DNA of 17,170 nucleotides from a virus (Duplodnaviria; Heunggongvirae; Uroviricota; Caudoviricetes), in IMG/VR virus record IMGVR_UViG_3300037245_003487, positions 105,441 to 122,610 of that record; one strand, written 5' to 3'. Positions 5,044 through 16,783 of this stretch are shown piece by piece (position 1 is the stretch's first letter; every line of letters starts with the position of its first letter). The position numbers were made by a program, and so were the translations under genes. The notes below the pieces were generated by a model, which worked only from the letters and a program-made list of their open reading frames with translations, did not search any database and had not been told where the DNA came from.

Positions 5044-5336
5044 TAAAACCTCCTGGTCTTTTCTGCTTTTAATTGTTTATCATCGTCCAAGATGATTTTA
5101 TACATCGGCATATCTTTACCTTCTGGAATCTCATCAAACAACTCATTACATACTGCATCATATTCAAAACTATCTAATACAAACATAAATTCACATCTAA
5201 GAATTATCATTTTACCCATTAGTTTCATAACCAATTCAGGCTCTTGTATAATCAATGCTCTGTTTAATCTAAAAGATCCCCTTTTCTCACTTAAAGATAA
5301 AGTTTTTTCTTTTTCATCACTCACTATCATCTCCAT
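5043..5336 (-). CDS. Hypothetical phage protein (start uncertain: ATG 5336, ATG 5330 or GTG 5324; the ORF track start at 5381 is probably too long)
   Basis: Its stop is coupled to the next ORF. A GGAG lies 6 nt before the GTG at 5324, overlapping the portal stop. Confidence 0.7.
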   Translation of the reverse strand: MEMIVSDEKEKTLSLSEKRGSFRLNRALIIQEPELVMKLMGKMIILRCEFMFVLDSFEYDAVCNELFDEIPEGKDMPMYKIILDDDKQLKAEKTRRF

Positions 5337-7095
5337 CACTTGGTTCTTTCTCTGGTTGGCTGTTATTAAGCTCACCATCATCTTCTATATCAGCATTCTG
5401 AGTTTTACCCAATACAGGAGTTAAAACTGGACCAGGCTGCAGTATAGTATAATTCAGGGGAACTAAGATAACATCACTGCCGTCTAGATCGTCCATACCA
5501 AGTATTCTTCTTTTTTCATTTATTGTTAGGAAATCACTTTTCTGCATTCTTTCCCATAATCTTTCACGTTTAATAGATAATGCAGGTATTTTTTCTAGAT
5601 CGAAATCTAAAAATAATTTCTCTGGATTATCTACTCCAAAGATCCAGTTATTCAACTCTTCTTTGATAATATTTAAGTAGGATACTACTGTATCTTCCCA
5701 AAAAATCATTCTTGCTGTTTCAAAATTACTGTTATGAACAACAATTCCATCTGCAATAAAGTTATGACTTCCTTCTACTTCTATATCAAAAACATCTTCT
5801 GCTTCTAATTCATTTATTTCTTTTATTTCAGAGAAATTTAAATATTCAATTGGTATAATATAACCAGCTAAATTACCTCGATGATCCTCATAAGGATTAG
5901 TGTGCATTTCAACAATAACATCACCAACTTTTAATCTTCCAACTTGAACATAAGTTAAATAATACTTATCCTGATATGTTTTTCTAACAAGTACTGGATG
6001 ATTATTAGTAGCTTTAAGCGTATTGTTTTCAGCAATAATTTCATAAAGTACTTTATGTCCAGTTTTCATTTGTTCAAGAACTTTTCTTTCTTCAAGTCTA
6101 TTACCGACTAATGAATAAACATAGTCTCCAACTGAAAGCTCTGAAATGCTTCTTAAACCTTTTGATGTTGCAACTTTAGCATAGGATGGTAAACAATAAG
6201 TACTATCGCCTATAATACCAAGCATTTGAGGTGGAACACCCCATCCTGAAGAAATGCCCCTTGCTAATTCCCTATTAGATTCCATGAAATCCAATTCTTT
6301 TGGAGTCCAATTATAAGGAACTACTTTAGCTCCATTCTCAACTATCAAATTACTTCCAGCACCATTAGCGCCAGAATGTTTATCTTTTAAAAGGTTTTCA
6401 AGTCTATCATATTGTTGATCACTTAATGTGCCATCAACTGTAAATACTAAACCTGGTCTACCCTCATTTTCAAGTATTTTCTTTTGCCATTCTATAGCTT
6501 CATTCGAAGTATCAATTTCTCTCATTAATGCTTTTATTGGAGATGCACCCCAGAAGTCATCTAATGGATTTGGTAATTTTGAATGTAAAACATCAGAATC
6601 ACCTGAAACTGGATCAATTTTAAATGGTATTGCTTTGTCAAAAGTATAACTATCTAATCCGCCAGTATTAGGATTAGTATTAATCTGCATTTTATCGGGT
6701 CTTAATGTATAAAGTTCTCTAGGATATTTCTCATTACCAATCATAACTCTTTCTAAAAAAGAATTACCACTTGCTAATAAATAAATAACCCACTTAAAAA
6801 GAACTGCATTAAATGTTTCATGAGGATTAGCTTTTTTTAAAAGATTCATTATTTCGTGATCTTCAACTTTATCTATCTTATCATTATTCCATTTAAAAAG
6901 CTTCCATGTTACATTACTTATAGACTGAGCAATCATAAACATAGCTCTAAAACAAATCCTATTTTTAAGATATGTCTCAGCTATAAATTGTTCATAATTA
7001 TCAGGAGTCCAATGAGCACTGCCCATTTTAGTATTAATAATCTGTGTTCTGCTTTCTTTTATGTGTCTTGGTTTAAATATATTTAAAAAACCCAT
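5317..7095 (-). CDS. Portal protein, HK97 family, intein-containing precursor (592 aa; about 437 aa after splicing)
   Basis: Motifs NPHET, 'YLLASGNSF', LRPDKM, 'DDFWGASPI', 'S.PKELDFME', 'GVPPQMLG', TY/SNFE and 'FLTINEKR..LG'. It lies upstream of the protease and capsid genes. Confidence 0.95.
   Translation of the reverse strand: MGFLNIFKPRHIKESRTQIINTKMGSAHWTPDNYEQFIAETYLKNRICFRAMFMIAQSISNVTWKLFKWNNDKIDKVEDHEIMNLLKKANPHETFNAVLFKWVIYLLASGNSFLERVMIGNEKYPRELYTLRPDKMQINTNPNTGGLDSYTFDKAIPFKIDPVSGDSDVLHSKLPNPLDDFWGASPIKALMREIDTSNEAIEWQKKILENEGRPGLVFTVDGTLSDQQYDRLENLLKDKHSGANGAGSNLIVENGAKVVPYNWTPKELDFMESNRELARGISSGWGVPPQMLGIIGDSTYCLPSYAKVATSKGLRSISELSVGDYVYSLVGNRLEERKVLEQMKTGHKVLYEIIAENNTLKATNNHPVLVRKTYQDKYYLTYVQVGRLKVGDVIVEMHTNPYEDHRGNLAGYIIPIEYLNFSEIKEINELEAEDVFDIEVEGSHNFIADGIVVHNSNFETARMIFWEDTVVSYLNIIKEELNNWIFGVDNPEKLFLDFDLEKIPALSIKRERLWERMQKSDFLTINEKRRILGMDDLDGSDVILVPLNYTILQPGPVLTPVLGKTQNADIEDDGELNNSQPEKEPSDGDDSE
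5731..6195 (-). mobile_element. Mini-intein (155 aa, Cys301-Asn455) in the portal protein
   Basis: It starts CLPSYAKVATSKG (block A, with VGDYVY), has ATNNHPVLV (block B TxxH) and DVFDIEVEGSHNFIADGIVVHN (blocks F/G), and is followed by a +1 Ser. Removing it restores the portal motif GDSTY-SNFE. It is too short to hold a LAGLIDADG domain. Confidence 0.95.
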
Positions 7096-14511: not shown

Positions 14512-14621
14512 TCAATCTCATGGTCAAATGTAAATTAATTGTAATAGCAGGAAACTGGGTATGGATAAAAGCATTGAAGTCAAACAATGTTAAATTTTTT
14601 ACTTATACCAACCTACTGTAC

Positions 14622-14650
14622 TTGACAAAAATAAATAAATATGTTATTAT
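14622..14650 (+). promoter_or_regulatory. Sigma70-type promoter
   Basis: TTGACA (14622-14627), 17 nt, TATTAT (14645-14650), with an extended TG. A GAGG RBS lies at 14661. Confidence 0.7.
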
Positions 14651-14669
14651 TAAAAATAAAGAGGTTTTT

Positions 14670-15512
14670 ATGGAAAGTGGTTATATTTACGTTATAAGAA
14701 GCGAATTAGTAAAAAACTGGATCAAGATTGGAAGATCTACAAATTTATTTAATAGAATGAAAAGTCATTCATCTTCAATGCCTGGTAATATTGAAAATTT
14801 ATTATCATTCCATGCTGATGGATACAAAAAAACAGAATTATTCTTACATCATTTTTTTAAAAATTATAGAGCTACGCCTAAAAGAGAATGGTTTATTTTT
14901 CCTGATATAATTATAAAAAAAATTAAATTTCTCAATTTTATATTAGATGAATCTAAAAAGACACATCATGATGATGTTAAAGATATCTTTATTAAAGAAT
15001 TTAATGAAAATATTCATACAGAAAATGGAATATGTTATGACTGCGGAAATGAATTGGATTTAAATAGTTATAATTTTCACAGGGACAATAATTCATTATC
15101 TAAATTTAAATCTATTTGTAAAAAATGCAGGAATGAAAAAGAAAAATTAAAGTATGGCGGCTACAAAAAACAAAAGGAATATAGAAAAGAATATAATTAT
15201 ATCTCAATAATAAATAAAAAAAATAAAATAATATTAAAAGAGTCCGATGGGCCACTTCTAGAAGATGGAATATTATTAATTATAAAAACAAGTGATAATG
15301 CTAGATTTATAAAATTTTTTACCGATGAGTTTTCCTTAGAAATGAATGACTTTAAATTTAATAAATTATTAAAAGGAATAAAAAATGTTAATGACCAATT
15401 ACAGATAAATACAAATTTTTATACTTATGATTACTTTAGGGTTAGTCATGTTATTGGTCTTTTTGAAAAATATTGTAAAACAAATGTAAATGCTGTTGAC
15501 AACGAAAATTAA
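14670..15512 (+). CDS. GIY-YIG superfamily endonuclease (T5orf172/MUG113-like) with a Zn-ribbon
   Basis: GYIYVI...WIKIGRSTNL..RM...E..LH..F..YR...REWF is a T5orf172-like GIY-YIG pattern. The start was reset to the ATG at 14670 because the promoter and RBS lie inside the longer ORF-track call. A CYDC...CKKC module lies at 15033-15128. Confidence 0.8.
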   Translation: MESGYIYVIRSELVKNWIKIGRSTNLFNRMKSHSSSMPGNIENLLSFHADGYKKTELFLHHFFKNYRATPKREWFIFPDIIIKKIKFLNFILDESKKTHHDDVKDIFIKEFNENIHTENGICYDCGNELDLNSYNFHRDNNSLSKFKSICKKCRNEKEKLKYGGYKKQKEYRKEYNYISIINKKNKIILKESDGPLLEDGILLIIKTSDNARFIKFFTDEFSLEMNDFKFNKLLKGIKNVNDQLQINTNFYTYDYFRVSHVIGLFEKYCKTNVNAVDNEN

Positions 15513-15524
15513 TTATGTTACATT
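15496..15524 (+). promoter_or_regulatory. Sigma70-type promoter for the 253-aa gene and its RNA tail
   Basis: TTGACA (15496-15501), 17 nt, TACATT (15519-15524), with an extended TG. An AAGGAGG RBS lies at 15541-15547. Confidence 0.7.
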
Positions 15525-15553: not shown

Positions 15554-16315
15554 ATGAGCGAAAAAACAAAAAATCAGCTTCATCAATTATTAGCTGTAGA
15601 GAATGGCAGAAAACAGCAAGCAGTCAATATTATGAATGAAACTATTAATACGTTTCAGAAAAAAACAGATCACTTTGATGGTCTAACTAAAATCTACTCA
15701 GCATTTGAAGAAGGTGGGCAAGAAGTTCCACCAGAAACCAAAGAAGTAAAAGAAACAGTTCCATCAAAAATTAATTATGCAAAAAAATCAATAATCAAAG
15801 CTATTGATGCGCAATTATCAAAGGAAGAATCAAATGCATCTGGTATTGTAAGGGCAGAATTACTTGTAAAAGGTGTTAGCTTTGGCGAGTTATCATCAAC
15901 TTCATTACTTGCACTTGAAAGCCATATGCTTAAAGTTAGAGCTGTATATAAAGCTATTCCAACTTTAGACCCTGTAAGAAAATGGAACAAAGATGAATTT
16001 GGCATTTATATAACTGACTCTGAAGTTAAATATAAAACATCTAAAAAACAACAAGTTATTACGCTTTACGAAGCGACCAAAGAACACCCAGCTCAAGTTC
16101 AGCTTGACTATGTAGACACACAAGTTGGTCAGTATGATACAACTTATAAATCAGGTAAAATTACACCAAAGCAAAAATCAGACTTACTTGCTAAAATTGA
16201 CAACATCATTGATGCAGTTAAAAGAGCAAGAGCGAAAGCTAACCAGGCTGAAATTGTTGAAATGAAAATTGGTAATAAATTATTTGATTACATTAACAAA
16301 GATATTTTAGGCTAG
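15554..16315 (+). CDS. Uncharacterised helical/beta-hairpin protein (resembles, from memory and unverified, the DUF7873-like family)
   Basis: 253-aa ORF with a perfect RBS and its own promoter. Conserved-looking motifs include LHQLLAVE, LLALE, IPTLDP..KW, LYEATKEHPAQV, SG.I and AVKRARAKAN. Function is unknown. Confidence 0.85.
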   Translation: MSEKTKNQLHQLLAVENGRKQQAVNIMNETINTFQKKTDHFDGLTKIYSAFEEGGQEVPPETKEVKETVPSKINYAKKSIIKAIDAQLSKEESNASGIVRAELLVKGVSFGELSSTSLLALESHMLKVRAVYKAIPTLDPVRKWNKDEFGIYITDSEVKYKTSKKQQVITLYEATKEHPAQVQLDYVDTQVGQYDTTYKSGKITPKQKSDLLAKIDNIIDAVKRARAKANQAEIVEMKIGNKLFDYINKDILG

Positions 16316-16432
16316 ATTTATATATCAGCATTAGTCTTAGCTTTACAAGGAATCTTAGCTCATAGTAGCTATGTTTTCCGATCAGACTTTTGCCTAACTA
16401 GCTTTATTCATTAAAATCTATTTTACATACAA

Positions 16433-16587
16433 GATGATGGTTTTTTAAACATCCTGTGCGTTGGTTCGAATCCAACATCTGCATCTGACAAGTGGATGAG
16501 TATATAATATGAATAAAACTCTCCAAGTGTTTGATGCGGATTAGCTCAGTGGCAGAGCAAGGATATTAGCAACAAAAACCAAAGATC
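16433..16587 (+). ncRNA. Circularly permuted tRNA-like RNA, unit A (3' half before 5' half)
   Basis: 3' half: ATCCT 16451-55, GTGC, T-arm GTTGG-TTCGAAT-CCAAC 16460-76, ATCTGCA 16477-83. 5' half: TGCGGAT 16535-41, TA, D-arm GCTC-AGTGGCA-GAGC 16544-58, A, AGGAT 16560-64. The acceptor (7 bp, one G.U) and anticodon (5 bp) stems pair only in the permuted order. Confidence 0.8.
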
Positions 16588-16609
16588 GAGTTATTAGATT
16601 TTAATACAA

Positions 16610-16680
16610 TACTAAAAGGTTCGACTCCTTTTGCTTCCAATTAAAAAACCAAGGGAGCAGCACAAATGGATGGTGCAGTA
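16610..16680 (+). ncRNA. Circularly permuted tRNA-like RNA, unit B (compact, alanine-type acceptor)
   Basis: T-arm AAAGG-TTCGACT-CCTTT 16615-31 and TGCTTCC-A 16632-39, a 13-nt linker, GGGAGCA 16653-59, D-like arm GCAC-AAATGGATG-GTGC 16660-76. AGTA 16677-80 can pair with TACT 16610-13. Confidence 0.65.
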
Positions 16681-16692
16681 CAAACAAACTTA

Positions 16693-16730
16693 GGGGGCTA
16701 TACAGGATACATGTGGCCCCCATTTTTATT
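16693..16730 (+). terminator. Intrinsic terminator closing the ORF plus RNA transcript
   Basis: GGGGGCTATA pairs with TGTGGCCCCC (10 bp including G.U) and is followed by ATTTTTATT. Confidence 0.7.
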
Positions 16731-16755
16731 TATTGTAAGTATTGTGTAAAAACAC

Positions 16756-16783
16756 TTTACTTTTAAATATAATTTGCTATTAT
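16756..16783 (+). promoter_or_regulatory. Possible sigma70-type promoter
   Basis: TTTACT, 16 nt, TATTAT with an extended TG. An AAGGAG RBS precedes the ATG at 16818. Confidence 0.45.

What the first reader, a model, noticed from the sequence alone, without database searches (positions are those of the whole stretch)
16433..16587. Unit A: a complete cloverleaf in permuted order, with paired leader/trailer and a hairpin spacer
Seen by hand pairing: the acceptor TGCGGAT/ATCTGCA extends to 9 bp. There is a canonical D-arm with GG, a canonical T-arm with TTCGAAT, and an AGGAT/ATCCT anticodon stem, but the 3' half lies upstream of the 5' half. The ~50-nt spacer continues the acceptor helix (TGACA 16486-90 with TGTTT 16528-32; GGA-GAG 16494-500 with CTCTCC 16519-24). 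Beyond the anticodon stem, the leader TGGTTTTT (16438-45) pairs with the trailer AAAAACCA (16574-81), and GAT (16433-35) with ATC (16585-87), around an internal loop. No CCA is encoded. Inference: this is what a processing substrate would look like, either ligation at the anticodon junction plus RNase P/Z removal of the spacer, or a two-piece RNA with a tmRNA-like long helix 2. Five mutually consistent helices are hard to explain by chance.
Basis: partly seen in the sequence, partly recalled or inferred. Interest (0 to 1): 0.88.

Follow-up and report, generated by a model that had tools for sequence, protein, structure and literature searches.

The report
Back-to-front tRNA mimic beside DUF7873
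The stretch encodes a real RNA shaped like a transfer RNA with its two halves swapped; it belongs to a widespread, unnamed family of tRNA look-alikes that follows one unknown protein gene (DUF7873) in phages and bacteria, and is more likely a Y-RNA-type mimic than a gene for a working tRNA.

Summary
RNAfold on its own reproduces all five helices (z = -3.3). ARAGORN accepts the re-joined halves as a canonical cloverleaf.

The window is the end of a complete 122.6-kb phage from marine sediment. Unit A lies 95 nt downstream of a DUF7873 gene (PF25283). The same T arm / capped acceptor / D arm module, enclosed by a leader-trailer helix, follows DUF7873 homologues in three sets:
- 47 of 60 viral loci (window included)
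- 64 of 80 bacterial loci from many phyla
- a cultured Rhizobium phage

It is always on the gene's strand and shows full covariation.

The closest known kind is YrlA, the Ro60-bound Y RNA described as a "circularly permuted tRNA". Unit A fails YrlA's defining tests:
- no GNCGAA Ro60 site
- no TROVE gene in the phage
- no Rfam hit

I found no sign of splicing into a decoding tRNA. In Unit A the acceptor is sealed by a stable hairpin and no CCA is encoded. However, 25 of 58 relatives encode N-CCA there, so acceptor-end processing is plausible in part of the family.

Verdict: a real RNA and a new variant of a known kind. This scan has already noted the family on other DNA (at least 99 genomes). 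Function is unproven.

The parts
15496..15524 (+). Promoter-like site (TTGACA-17-TACATT with TG) upstream of the DUF7873 gene. It is a possible start of a gene-plus-RNA transcript.
   Evidence: Consensus scan, 10 of 12 matches. Pattern match only.
15554..16315 (+). DUF7873 gene (253 aa), the conserved neighbour of the RNA. It carries the invariant motif YEATKEHPAQ.
   Evidence: Pfam PF25283, E 1.4e-69. Alignment of 28 homologues. AlphaFold model pLDDT 84, with no named structural relative.
16316..16409 (+). 5' region of the RNA with TTAG(N)C-type short repeats and a TAGCTTTATT block.
   Evidence: Sequence. The TTAG-type blocks and TAGCTTTATT are best conserved in L003 and L004 and partly in L005 and L007.
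16410..16420 (+). Outer terminal stem, 5' strand (ATTAAAATCTA). It pairs with 16595-16605.
   Evidence: MFE fold of 16316-16740. Duplex fold of leader with trailer.
16433..16445 (+). Leader strands GAT and TGGTTTTT. They pair with the trailer 16574-16587.
   Evidence: Own duplex -15.0 kcal/mol, against -7.3 with foreign trailers.
16451..16455 (+). Anticodon-type stem, 3' strand (ATCCT; tRNA positions 39-43). It is followed by the 4-nt variable region GTGC, 16456-59.
   Evidence: Family covariation.
16460..16476 (+). T arm: GTTGG TTCGAAT CCAAC.
   Evidence: Paired in 100% of cells in 57 relatives, though the detector selects for this.
16477..16483 (+). Acceptor 3' strand ATCTGCA (positions 66-72). 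U73 at 16484. No CCA.
16484..16534 (+). 51-nt spacer hairpin that continues and caps the acceptor helix.
   Evidence: Spacer MFE -11.0 against -5.4 for shuffles, z = -2.9.
16535..16541 (+). Acceptor 5' strand TGCGGAT (positions 1-7; U1-A72, G4.U69).
16542..16559 (+). U8-A9, then D arm GCTC AGTGGCA GAGC, then A26. The elbow nucleotides are all present: U8, A14, G15 (with C48), G18 and G19.
16560..16564 (+). Anticodon-type stem, 5' strand (AGGAT; positions 27-31).
16565..16573 (+). 9-nt asymmetric bulge ATTAGCAAC. AT-AG of the ATTAG motif is invariant in the nearest relatives.
   Evidence: Alignment A3, invariant A250 T251 A253 G254. The U-Y-A-R motif is only about 2-fold enriched family-wide.
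16574..16587 (+). Trailer strands AAAAACCA and ATC. They pair with the leader.
16595..16605 (+). Outer terminal stem, 3' strand (TAGATTTTAAT).
16615..16676 (+). 'Unit B': T arm, loop-capped 7-bp acceptor (TGCTTCC/GGGAGCA) and a D-like hairpin. A weak, degenerate second module.
   Evidence: Model R1 gives 17.7 bits (E 0.04; 0.007). No counterpart in the nearest relatives L003-L007.
16683..16721 (+). GC-rich hairpin GGGGGC...GCCCCC followed by a T-run: the likely intrinsic terminator of the RNA.
   Evidence: Sequence and fold. The simple scanner did not flag it. Nearest relatives have terminator-like hairpins 30-95 nt after the trailer.

Best explanation
Unit A is the tRNA-shaped head of a roughly 400-nt phage non-coding RNA. 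The RNA runs from the DUF7873 stop codon to the terminator near 16720.

It belongs to a conserved family of circularly permuted tRNA-like RNAs. These are encoded directly downstream of DUF7873 genes, on the same strand, in phages and in many bacterial phyla.

Architecturally it is a Y-RNA of the YrlA type:
- The 5' and 3' flanks pair into a long irregular stem that runs into the anticodon-type stem.
- The T arm, acceptor helix and D arm follow in that order and can form a normal tRNA elbow.
- The acceptor is sealed by a hairpin, so there is no free CCA end, and there is no anticodon loop.

Shown here:
- the structure
- its conservation by covariation
- the gene-RNA linkage
- the absence of the Ro60 site and of a Ro60 gene

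Inferred:
- The RNA acts as a scaffold or mimic. Its head engages proteins that recognise the tRNA elbow, acceptor and T arm (RNase P, CCA-adding enzyme, modification enzymes, or a tRNA-directed host factor).
- The long stem, with its conserved bulge, is held by a partner protein, most simply DUF7873.
- This particular unit stays closed and is neither charged nor used in decoding.
For: Structure:
- Unconstrained MFE equals the permuted cloverleaf, z = -3.34. The outer stem appears in the 425-nt fold, z = -3.78.
- ARAGORN accepts the re-joined halves.

Family in viruses:
- Pfam DUF7873, E 1.4e-69.
- A strict detector (T arm, then a 7/7 acceptor across a loop, then a D arm) finds 65 units in 85 kb downstream on the gene's strand, in 47 of 60 viral loci (window included).
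- Controls: 1 in 178 kb upstream, 0 in 375 kb on the opposite strand, 1 in 1.7 Mb of shuffled sequence.

Covariation on 57 units:
- Score 0.78, against 0.21 shuffled and 0.13-0.20 for slid partners.
- The anticodon-type stem, which the detector does not select, is 65% paired against 38-48% slid. It is 5/5 paired in 31 of 58 units, where about 8% is expected.

Leader-trailer duplex: -16.2 kcal/mol with own trailer, -10.5 with foreign trailers. 53 of 56 units are better with their own; p = 7e-10.

Independent test:
- A covariance model built only from viral units gives 92 hits at E <= 0.01 on bacterial DUF7873 loci.
- All hits are on the gene's strand and downstream, in 64 of 80 loci, often two per locus.
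- It also hits a cultured Rhizobium phage at 59 bits, in an unannotated gap inside a tRNA cluster.

Likeness to YrlA:
- Rfam YrlA is the only non-tRNA family to hit the relatives: full-length, 28-35 bits, in 7 of 10 loci.
- The literature describes YrlA as T, AS, D in this order with a closed acceptor, 'resembling circularly permuted tRNAs'.

Closed state of Unit A: no CCA, and -1 pairs with 73. That pairing is seen in 21 of 32 CCA-less units against 9 of 25 CCA-bearing units.
Against: - No transcript, end-mapping, binding or modification datum exists for this RNA or any relative I could reach. No RNA run was listed.
- That DUF7873 binds the RNA rests on synteny only. Its fold has no informative relative.
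- Five of nine other DUF7873 phage records do carry a TROVE/Ro60 gene, 5-10 kb away in three. The system may therefore work with Ro60 where one is available, for example from the host, and not independently.
- N-CCA follows the acceptor in 43% of relatives, and G1 is present in 43 of 57. The head is therefore under selection for real acceptor-end features, which a purely 'closed mimic' reading does not explain.
- The T-stem and acceptor covariation figures are inflated, because my detector required those pairs.
Confidence: 0.65

Rival explanations
1. Two-piece tRNA-like RNA. RNase P cuts at the 5' side of U1 (16535). The spacer is trimmed back and CCA is added after U73. This leaves two base-paired pieces with a free, possibly chargeable acceptor end, as reported for M. 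smegmatis YrlA.
For: [quoted passage not shown]
- N-CCA is encoded at 73-76 in 25 of 58 relatives, where 1.6% is expected by chance.
- In CCA-bearing units, AU precedes position +1 in 12 of 25 and G is at +1 in 20 of 25.
- M. smegmatis YrlA is cut by M1 RNA in vitro and receives CCA in vivo.
Against: - Unit A has no CCA and has U1-A72.
- Positions -1 and -2 pair with 73 and 74, and the helix continues into a stable 51-nt hairpin (z = -2.9).
- This is the 'closed' class, in which -1 pairs with 73 in 21 of 32 units.
- Wang et al. judge most closed YrlA acceptors to be poor RNase P substrates.
Confidence: 0.15
2. Classical YrlA. The RNA is a Y RNA bound by a Ro60/Rsr protein supplied by the host. 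It tethers Ro60 to an exoribonuclease. DUF7873 is an accessory factor or only a neighbour.
For: - Same module order and terminal stem as YrlA.
- Sub-threshold full-length Rfam YrlA hits on relatives.
- TROVE genes in 5 of 9 other DUF7873 phage records, 5-10 kb from the locus in three.
- TROVE over Pfam's cut-off in 2 of 5 bacterial carriers, with a third hit below it.
Against: - No GNCGAAN0-1G or CGAA motif in Unit A's flanks. The motif is present in only 3 of 57 family units.
- No TROVE in this complete phage, in another complete carrier phage, or in the complete Bernardetia genome.
- Unit A itself gets no Rfam YrlA hit even at E <= 10.
- The invariant linkage is to DUF7873, not to TROVE.
Confidence: 0.1
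3. True permuted tRNA gene. Leader and trailer are excised and the ends ligated, via a circular intermediate. RNase P and RNase Z then open the acceptor and CCA is added. The product is a decoding tRNA, for example tRNA-Leu(UAA) for an AT-rich phage.
For: - The re-permuted sequence is a flawless class-I cloverleaf for ARAGORN.
- The phage's seven ordinary tRNAs include no Leu.
- Bulges next to the stem often contain U-Y-A-R: 22 of 57 units, against 10-12 in control windows.
- Wang et al. raise this possibility for YrlA.
Against: - No conserved 7-nt loop can be reconstituted. The flanking helix and bulges vary in length.
- The anticodon depends on an arbitrary join.
- A Leu tRNA with a 4-nt variable loop and U73 does not fit bacterial LeuRS identity (my own knowledge).
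- No bulge-helix-bulge motif, and no such endonuclease is known in bacteria.
- The family includes tandem two-module RNAs, and it is tied to one protein gene across phyla. That is not how tRNA genes behave.
Confidence: 0.06
4. Debris or chance: the junction of two decayed tandem tRNA genes, or an attP-type tRNA fragment, with no function of its own.
For: - Dimeric tRNAs are a known source of false YrlA calls.
- Phages carry tRNA fragments at attachment sites (my own knowledge).
Against: - There is no D arm upstream and no T arm of matching acceptor downstream.
- The two strands of one acceptor pair 7/7, with different sequences in each lineage.
- Leader and trailer co-vary.
- The element keeps its place after DUF7873 across phyla.
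Confidence: 0.03

Closest known systems
YrlA (Y RNA-like A; Rfam RF02553), partner of bacterial and mycobacteriophage Ro60/Rsr (Chen et al. 2014, PMC4201824; Wang et al. 2018, 10.1101/312249)
   Same: - The 5' and 3' ends form a long stem that leads into an anticodon-type stem.
- Next come the variable region, T arm, loop-closed acceptor stem and D arm, in that order.
- The tRNA elbow nucleotides are kept.
- There is no anticodon loop.
- It occurs in phages as well as bacteria.
- It is the only Rfam ncRNA family that scores on the relatives (28-35 bits).
   Different: - No GNCGAAN0-1G Ro60 site.
- No TROVE gene in this phage.
- Below Rfam's gathering score in relatives, and no hit at all for Unit A.
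- The constant neighbour is DUF7873, not Ro60.
- The acceptor is a full 7 bp and, in 43% of relatives, is followed by N-CCA.
- The RNA is about 400 nt and often has two modules.
Mycobacterium smegmatis YrlA, the processed form (Chen et al. 2014)
   Same: A 7-bp acceptor next to a 5-bp T stem. The CCA-bearing relatives of Unit A look like substrates for the same RNase P cut and CCA completion.
   Different: Unit A itself has no CCA and has a continuous capped helix. Processing is untested in this family.
Circularly permuted tRNA genes of Cyanidioschyzon merolae, other algae and Thermofilum pendens (Soma 2007; Maruyama 2010; Chan 2011, as cited)
   Same: - The 3' half lies upstream of the 5' half.
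- The acceptor is closed by an intervening sequence.
- The termini pair beyond the anticodon stem.
   Different: Those are matured through a bulge-helix-bulge cut, circularisation and RNase P/Z into decoding tRNAs with defined anticodons. Here there is no conserved anticodon loop, no BHB, no known endonuclease in the host domain, and linkage to a protein gene.
Two-piece (permuted) tmRNA of alpha- and beta-proteobacteria and cyanobacteria (Rfam RF01849-RF01851)
   Same: Permuted gene order, with the T arm and acceptor 3' strand ahead of the acceptor 5' strand.
   Different: - No tag reading frame and no pseudoknots.
- Full D arm and anticodon-type stem.
- No G3:U70 in Unit A.
- Only a 12.9-bit partial beta_tmRNA match on Unit B and 7.3 bits on Unit A's T arm. 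ARAGORN finds no tmRNA.

Membership tests
YrlA (RF02553) | tRNA-like module in the order (V) - T stem-loop - acceptor-like stem-loop - D stem-loop | tested here: met
   Feature as defined.
YrlA (RF02553) | Long stem formed by the 5' and 3' ends, leading into the anticodon-type stem | tested here: met
YrlA (RF02553) | GNCGAAN0-1G (CGAA) Ro60-binding motif near the 5' end | tested here: not met
   No match in 16316-16459. The only CGAA in 16316-16740 is the T loop. The motif occurs in 3 of 57 family units.
YrlA (RF02553) | Encoded within about 4 kb of a TROVE (Ro60/Rsr) gene on the same strand | tested here: not met
   No TROVE match at E <= 1 in the complete 122.6-kb phage.
YrlA (RF02553) | Reaches Rfam's gathering score (69 bits) | tested here: not met
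   No hit on Unit A at gathering or at E <= 10. Relatives score 28-35 bits.
DUF7873-associated permuted tRNA-like RNA (unnamed; defined here by model R1) | Lies directly downstream of a DUF7873 gene on the same strand | tested here: met
   The gene ends at 16315 and the outer stem starts at 16410. Same layout in 47 of 60 viral loci (window included) and 64 of 80 bacterial loci.
DUF7873-associated permuted tRNA-like RNA (unnamed; defined here by model R1) | Matches the family covariance model over its full length | tested here: met
   73 bits, E 2e-18. However, Unit A was in the seed. Out-of-seed bacterial units score up to 78 bits.
Circularly permuted tRNA genes (algal/archaeal type) | 3' half upstream of the 5' half, giving a canonical cloverleaf when re-joined | tested here: met
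Circularly permuted tRNA genes (algal/archaeal type) | A defined anticodon loop restored at a conserved junction (bulge-helix-bulge) | tested here: inconclusive
   - No conserved 7-nt loop or fixed bulge geometry across 57 units.
- The UYAR motif is only 2-fold enriched.
- I did not search for BHB with a dedicated tool.
Circularly permuted tRNA genes (algal/archaeal type) | A circular intermediate and a mature CCA-ended tRNA are detected | not testable with these tools
   No RNA run was listed.
Two-piece tmRNA | Tag reading frame, pseudoknots, G3:U70 alanine identity | tested here: not met
   ARAGORN finds no tmRNA. No Rfam tmRNA family reaches threshold. Unit A has C3-G70.

The most novel reading that the evidence does not exclude
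DUF7873 and this RNA form a ribonucleoprotein that does not need Ro60. In the CCA-encoding members, the tRNA-like head is opened by RNase P and completed by the CCA-adding enzyme. The result is a two-piece tRNA-like RNA held together by the long stem and the protein, possibly aminoacylated. That would be a third kind of bacterial and phage tRNA-derived machine, beside tmRNA and Ro60-Y RNA. In phages it might be used to feed, repair or decoy the host's tRNA-handling systems.
Probability: 0.15. Interest if true: 0.85.

Novelty: new variant of a known kind. Interest (0 to 1): 0.6.

Why it matters
tRNA mimicry is a recurrent way for RNAs to borrow the cell's tRNA-handling enzymes; tmRNA, viral tRNA-like structures and Y RNAs are examples.

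This family has the YrlA architecture but a different constant partner, and it lacks the Ro60 site. It occurs in many bacterial phyla and in cultured phages of Rhizobium, Gordonia, Klebsiella, Vibrio and Ralstonia, where it is unannotated and often sits in tRNA clusters.

- If DUF7873 is its protein, a widespread RNP has been overlooked.
- The CCA-bearing members offer a direct test of whether bacteria or phages make two-piece or permuted tRNA-like molecules. Wang et al. (2018) raised that possibility explicitly.

On the practical side, the family deserves an Rfam model. The gaps after DUF7873 genes should not be read as empty intergenic DNA.

Tried and rejected
- ARAGORN on the native window found no tRNA or tmRNA.
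- Rfam at gathering score found nothing in the window. At E <= 10 there was only noise plus weak beta_tmRNA fragments.
- blastn of 16300-16760 against deposited phages gave no match.
- Sequencing runs: one DNA holder (a marine sediment metagenome, probably the source) and no RNA holder listed. I therefore did not use read laying.
- DUF7873 fold:
  - Foldseek PDB found nothing at E <= 0.001.
  - VIA-align found only generic helical matches, Z <= 8.8.
  - AFDB clusters returned only uncharacterised homologues.
  - The PDB profile search and the ESM Atlas added nothing.
  - PHROGs had no family.
- The 253-aa ORF upstream of the second permuted unit at genome 50.5-51.3 kb is not a DUF7873 paralogue. 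It is a cytidylyltransferase.
- Literature:
  - No paper mentions DUF7873.
  - No paper links permuted tRNAs to phages in this sense.
Like Sim et al. 2020, it is not held, so I could not check the claim.
- I considered reading the U-Y-A-R bulge motif as a leucine anticodon remnant. I rejected it as support because the enrichment is only about 2-fold.
- I considered G3:U70 as a family feature of second modules. It is not seen in other second units.
- I did not run complex prediction. It handles proteins only, and no protein-protein claim is made.
Full report
**Where the window lies.** The window is bases 105441-122610 of a 122,610-bp IMG/VR virus record rated 100% complete. GC is about 32%. It has a 127-bp terminal repeat that may only be an assembly overlap. 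It encodes terminase, a portal with an intein, and capsid. Seven ordinary tRNA genes lie far away, at 65-73 kb on the other strand. The only public run holding the stretch is a marine sediment metagenome.

**Checking the observation.** RNAfold of 16425-16595, without constraints, returns these elements:
- the T arm
- a 9-bp acceptor helix
- the spacer hairpin that continues that helix
- the D arm
- the AGGAT/ATCCT stem
- the TGGTTTTT/AAAAACCA and GAT/ATC leader-trailer pairs

MFE is -46.4 kcal/mol against -33.5 +/- 3.9 for shuffles; z = -3.34 and no shuffle is as good.

Folding the whole intergenic stretch 16316-16740 adds an outer 11-bp stem (16410-20 with 16595-605). It also shows a GC-rich hairpin plus T-run at 16683-16721.

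ARAGORN sees nothing in the native order. It calls the re-permuted sequence a clean 74-nt cloverleaf. The anticodon it reports, UAA or UAG, changes with the arbitrary join. The elbow nucleotides are all present: U8, A14, G15/C48, G18, G19, T54, T55, C56, A58 and G53:C61.

**What it sits next to.** The ORF ending at 16315 is a DUF7873 protein (PF25283, E 1.4e-69). A scan of IMG/VR with this protein returned 59 related loci. Almost all have a T loop, then a short loop or hairpin, then a TAGCTCAGTGG-type D arm just downstream.

I wrote a strict detector requiring:
- a 5/5 T stem with a TTCRANN-type loop
- a 7/7 acceptor across 3-60 nt
- a D arm with GG

| Region searched | Units found | Sequence searched |
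|---|---|---|
| Downstream of the gene, same strand (47 of 60 loci, window included) | 65 | 85 kb |
| Upstream | 1 | 178 kb |
| Opposite strand | 0 | 375 kb |
| Shuffled sequence | 1 | 1.7 Mb |

In the phage's own genome the detector finds only Unit A.

**Conservation of the structure.** On a MAFFT alignment of 57 non-redundant units, the four cloverleaf helices are 86% paired. That compares with 55% for shuffles and 38-48% with slid partners. The covariation score is 0.78 against 0.21, and 20 of 21 pairs show double changes.

The T and acceptor figures are inflated because the detector demanded those pairs. The anticodon-type stem was not selected:
- It is 65% paired in the fixed alignment.
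- With the variable region allowed 3-6 nt, it is 5/5 paired in 31 of 58 units, where I estimate about 8% by chance.

The flanks also co-vary. The best leader-trailer duplex is -16.2 kcal/mol with a unit's own trailer and -10.5 with trailers from other loci. It is better in 53 of 56 units; Wilcoxon p = 7e-10. For Unit A the values are -15.0 and -7.3.

Spacers of 20 nt or more fold better than shuffles, with mean z -2.9; Unit A is also -2.9.

**Independent test in bacteria and cultured phages.** I built a covariance model (R1) from the viral units only. It was run on 80 bacterial DUF7873 loci from GTDB representatives. These cover Cytophagales and other Bacteroidota, Myxococcota, Planctomycetota, Acidobacteriota, Actinomycetes, Verrucomicrobiota, Thiomargarita, Spirochaetota and others.

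- It gave 92 hits at E <= 0.01.
- Every hit is on the gene's strand and downstream of it.
- Hits fall in 64 of 80 loci, often two per locus.

The closest proteins, at about 50% identity, are from Cytophagales. That suggests the host clade.

tblastn finds DUF7873 in 84 deposited phage records, all annotated as hypothetical. They include Vibrio, Rhizobium, Gordonia, Prevotella Lak, Klebsiella, Serratia, Arthrobacter, Ralstonia phiRSL1 and Pseudanabaena phages. In Rhizobium phage RHph_Y65 the gene sits inside a tRNA cluster. An unannotated 454-nt gap follows it, and there R1 scores 59 bits.

**Comparison with YrlA.** The architecture is that of YrlA, the Ro60-bound Y RNA:
- It has a long 5'/3' stem, then T, acceptor-like and D stem-loops in that order.
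- Crystallography shows it to be a close tRNA mimic with a closed acceptor and no anticodon loop.
- Its authors describe it as resembling circularly permuted tRNAs.

Rfam's YrlA model is the only ncRNA family that scores on relatives of Unit A. The matches are full-length at 28-35 bits in 7 of 10 loci, with the gathering score at 69.

In the same phage, YrlA scores 24 bits and R1 scores 35 bits on a second permuted unit at genome 50107-50264 on the minus strand.

Unit A nevertheless fails the defining features:
- no Rfam hit even at E <= 10
- no GNCGAAN0-1G site, which occurs in only 3 of 57 family units
- no TROVE gene in the complete phage

Ro60 is not irrelevant, though. Five of nine other DUF7873-carrying phage records encode a TROVE protein, 5-10 kb from the locus in three. 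Two of five bacterial carriers have one over Pfam's cut-off, elsewhere in the genome, and a third has a sub-threshold match. A complete Bernardetia genome has none. Ro60 is thus a frequent companion, but DUF7873 is the constant one.

**The acceptor end.** N-CCA follows the acceptor 3' strand in 25 of 58 units. The two classes differ as follows:

| Class | G at +1 | AU before +1 | -1 can pair with 73 |
|---|---|---|---|
| CCA-bearing (25 units) | 20 | 12 | 9 |
| CCA-less (32 units) | 23 | 5 | 21 |

The first class looks like an RNase P / CCA-enzyme substrate, as shown experimentally for M. smegmatis YrlA. The second class is sealed. Unit A belongs to the sealed class: U1-A72, U73 paired with A(-1), no CCA, and a 51-nt capped helix.

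**The anticodon side.** Beyond the 5-bp stem there is no loop. There is a helix with bulges of varying size. In Unit A and its nearest relatives a 9-nt bulge begins with a conserved ATTAG motif (AT-AG invariant). Family-wide, a U-Y-A-R word near this position is only about twice as frequent as in control windows. I give its coincidence with leucine anticodons no weight.

**The rest of the RNA.** The nearest relatives (L003-L007) share the 5' tract of TTAG-type repeats to varying degrees, most clearly L003 and L004. They have one module, followed by a terminator-like hairpin 30-95 nt after the trailer. In the window, 'Unit B' is interposed at 16615-16676. It has a T arm, a loop-capped TGCTTCC/GGGAGCA helix and a D-like hairpin. 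It scores only 17.7 bits with R1. More distant viral and bacterial loci commonly have two full modules.

A good promoter match precedes the DUF7873 gene (15496-15524). No terminator was found between gene and RNA, so co-transcription is possible but unproven.

**The protein.** DUF7873 gives a confident AlphaFold model (pLDDT 84) of long helices packed on a beta sheet, with an invariant YEATKEHPAQ segment. None of the following returns an informative relative: Foldseek, VIA-align, AFDB clusters, PDB profile search, the ESM Atlas or PHROGs. That it binds the RNA is an inference from synteny alone.

**Verdict.** The evidence favours a YrlA-like mimic within a longer ncRNA. It does not favour a precursor of a decoding tRNA. 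For this unit it favours a closed acceptor, not an RNase P-opened one.

The family is not in Rfam 15 and is not mentioned in the papers I could search. It is unannotated in deposited phages. I rate it a new variant of a known kind.

Earlier notes of this scan describe the same DUF7873-RNA pairing on other DNA: 124 findings in at least 99 genomes. I had reached the YrlA reading and the DUF7873 linkage before the word search that returned those notes. They name Burroughs & Aravind 2016 as nearest in print, which I could not read.

Noticed in passing
G000:C1:50107-50264 (-), = L067; outside the window: A second circularly permuted tRNA-like unit in the same phage. Scores: R1 35 bits, E 3e-7; Rfam YrlA 24 bits. 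Its leader-trailer helix runs straight on from the anticodon-type stem. It is not next to DUF7873. It lies between a cytidylyltransferase gene and an HNH/NUMOD4 homing-endonuclease gene in the sugar cassette.
   Followed up: partly
G000:C1:about 50270-50390 (-); outside the window: An over-long tRNA-like sequence with a 9-bp acceptor (GGATAGAGA/TCTCTATCC), a D-like arm and a T arm. About 60 nt are inserted between them. ARAGORN does not call it.
   Followed up: no
window 16615-16676: Unit B has no counterpart in the nearest relatives L003-L007, which go from module 1 to a terminator-like hairpin. Its G3.U70/A73 set is not shared by second modules of other loci.
   Followed up: partly
window 16330-16409; L003, L004, L005 and L007 at the same position: A tract of TTAG(N)C/TTAGAC-type short repeats and a TAGCTTTATT block between the DUF7873 stop codon and the outer stem, clearest in L003 and L004. 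Similar TTAG-type words flank modules in distant loci.
   Followed up: no
L044 (G004), L018 (G006), L048 (G009), L033 (G001), L036 (G002): TROVE/Ro60-like genes occur in 5 of 9 other DUF7873-carrying phage records. In L044 and L018 the gene is about 5 kb upstream on the same strand.
   Followed up: partly
L015:3988-4057, L026:3990-4061, L039:4025-4092, L044:4062-4133: In several related phages an ordinary tRNA gene (Rfam tRNA, 53-62 bits) follows the permuted unit directly, where the window has Unit B.
   Followed up: no
window 5317-7095 (-): The portal protein gene carries an intein (Intein_splicing and Hint domains inside Phage_portal).
   Followed up: no
window 14520-15512 (+): A T5orf172/MUG113 (GIY-YIG-like) protein gene with an endonuclease VII-like segment lies just upstream of the DUF7873 promoter. 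It is probably a homing-type nuclease, and I did not examine whether relatives conserve it.
   Followed up: no
G000:C1:1-127 and 122484-122610: The 'direct terminal repeat' is only 127 bp, so it may be a circular-assembly overlap and not a physical end. The window would then continue into the start of the record.
   Followed up: no
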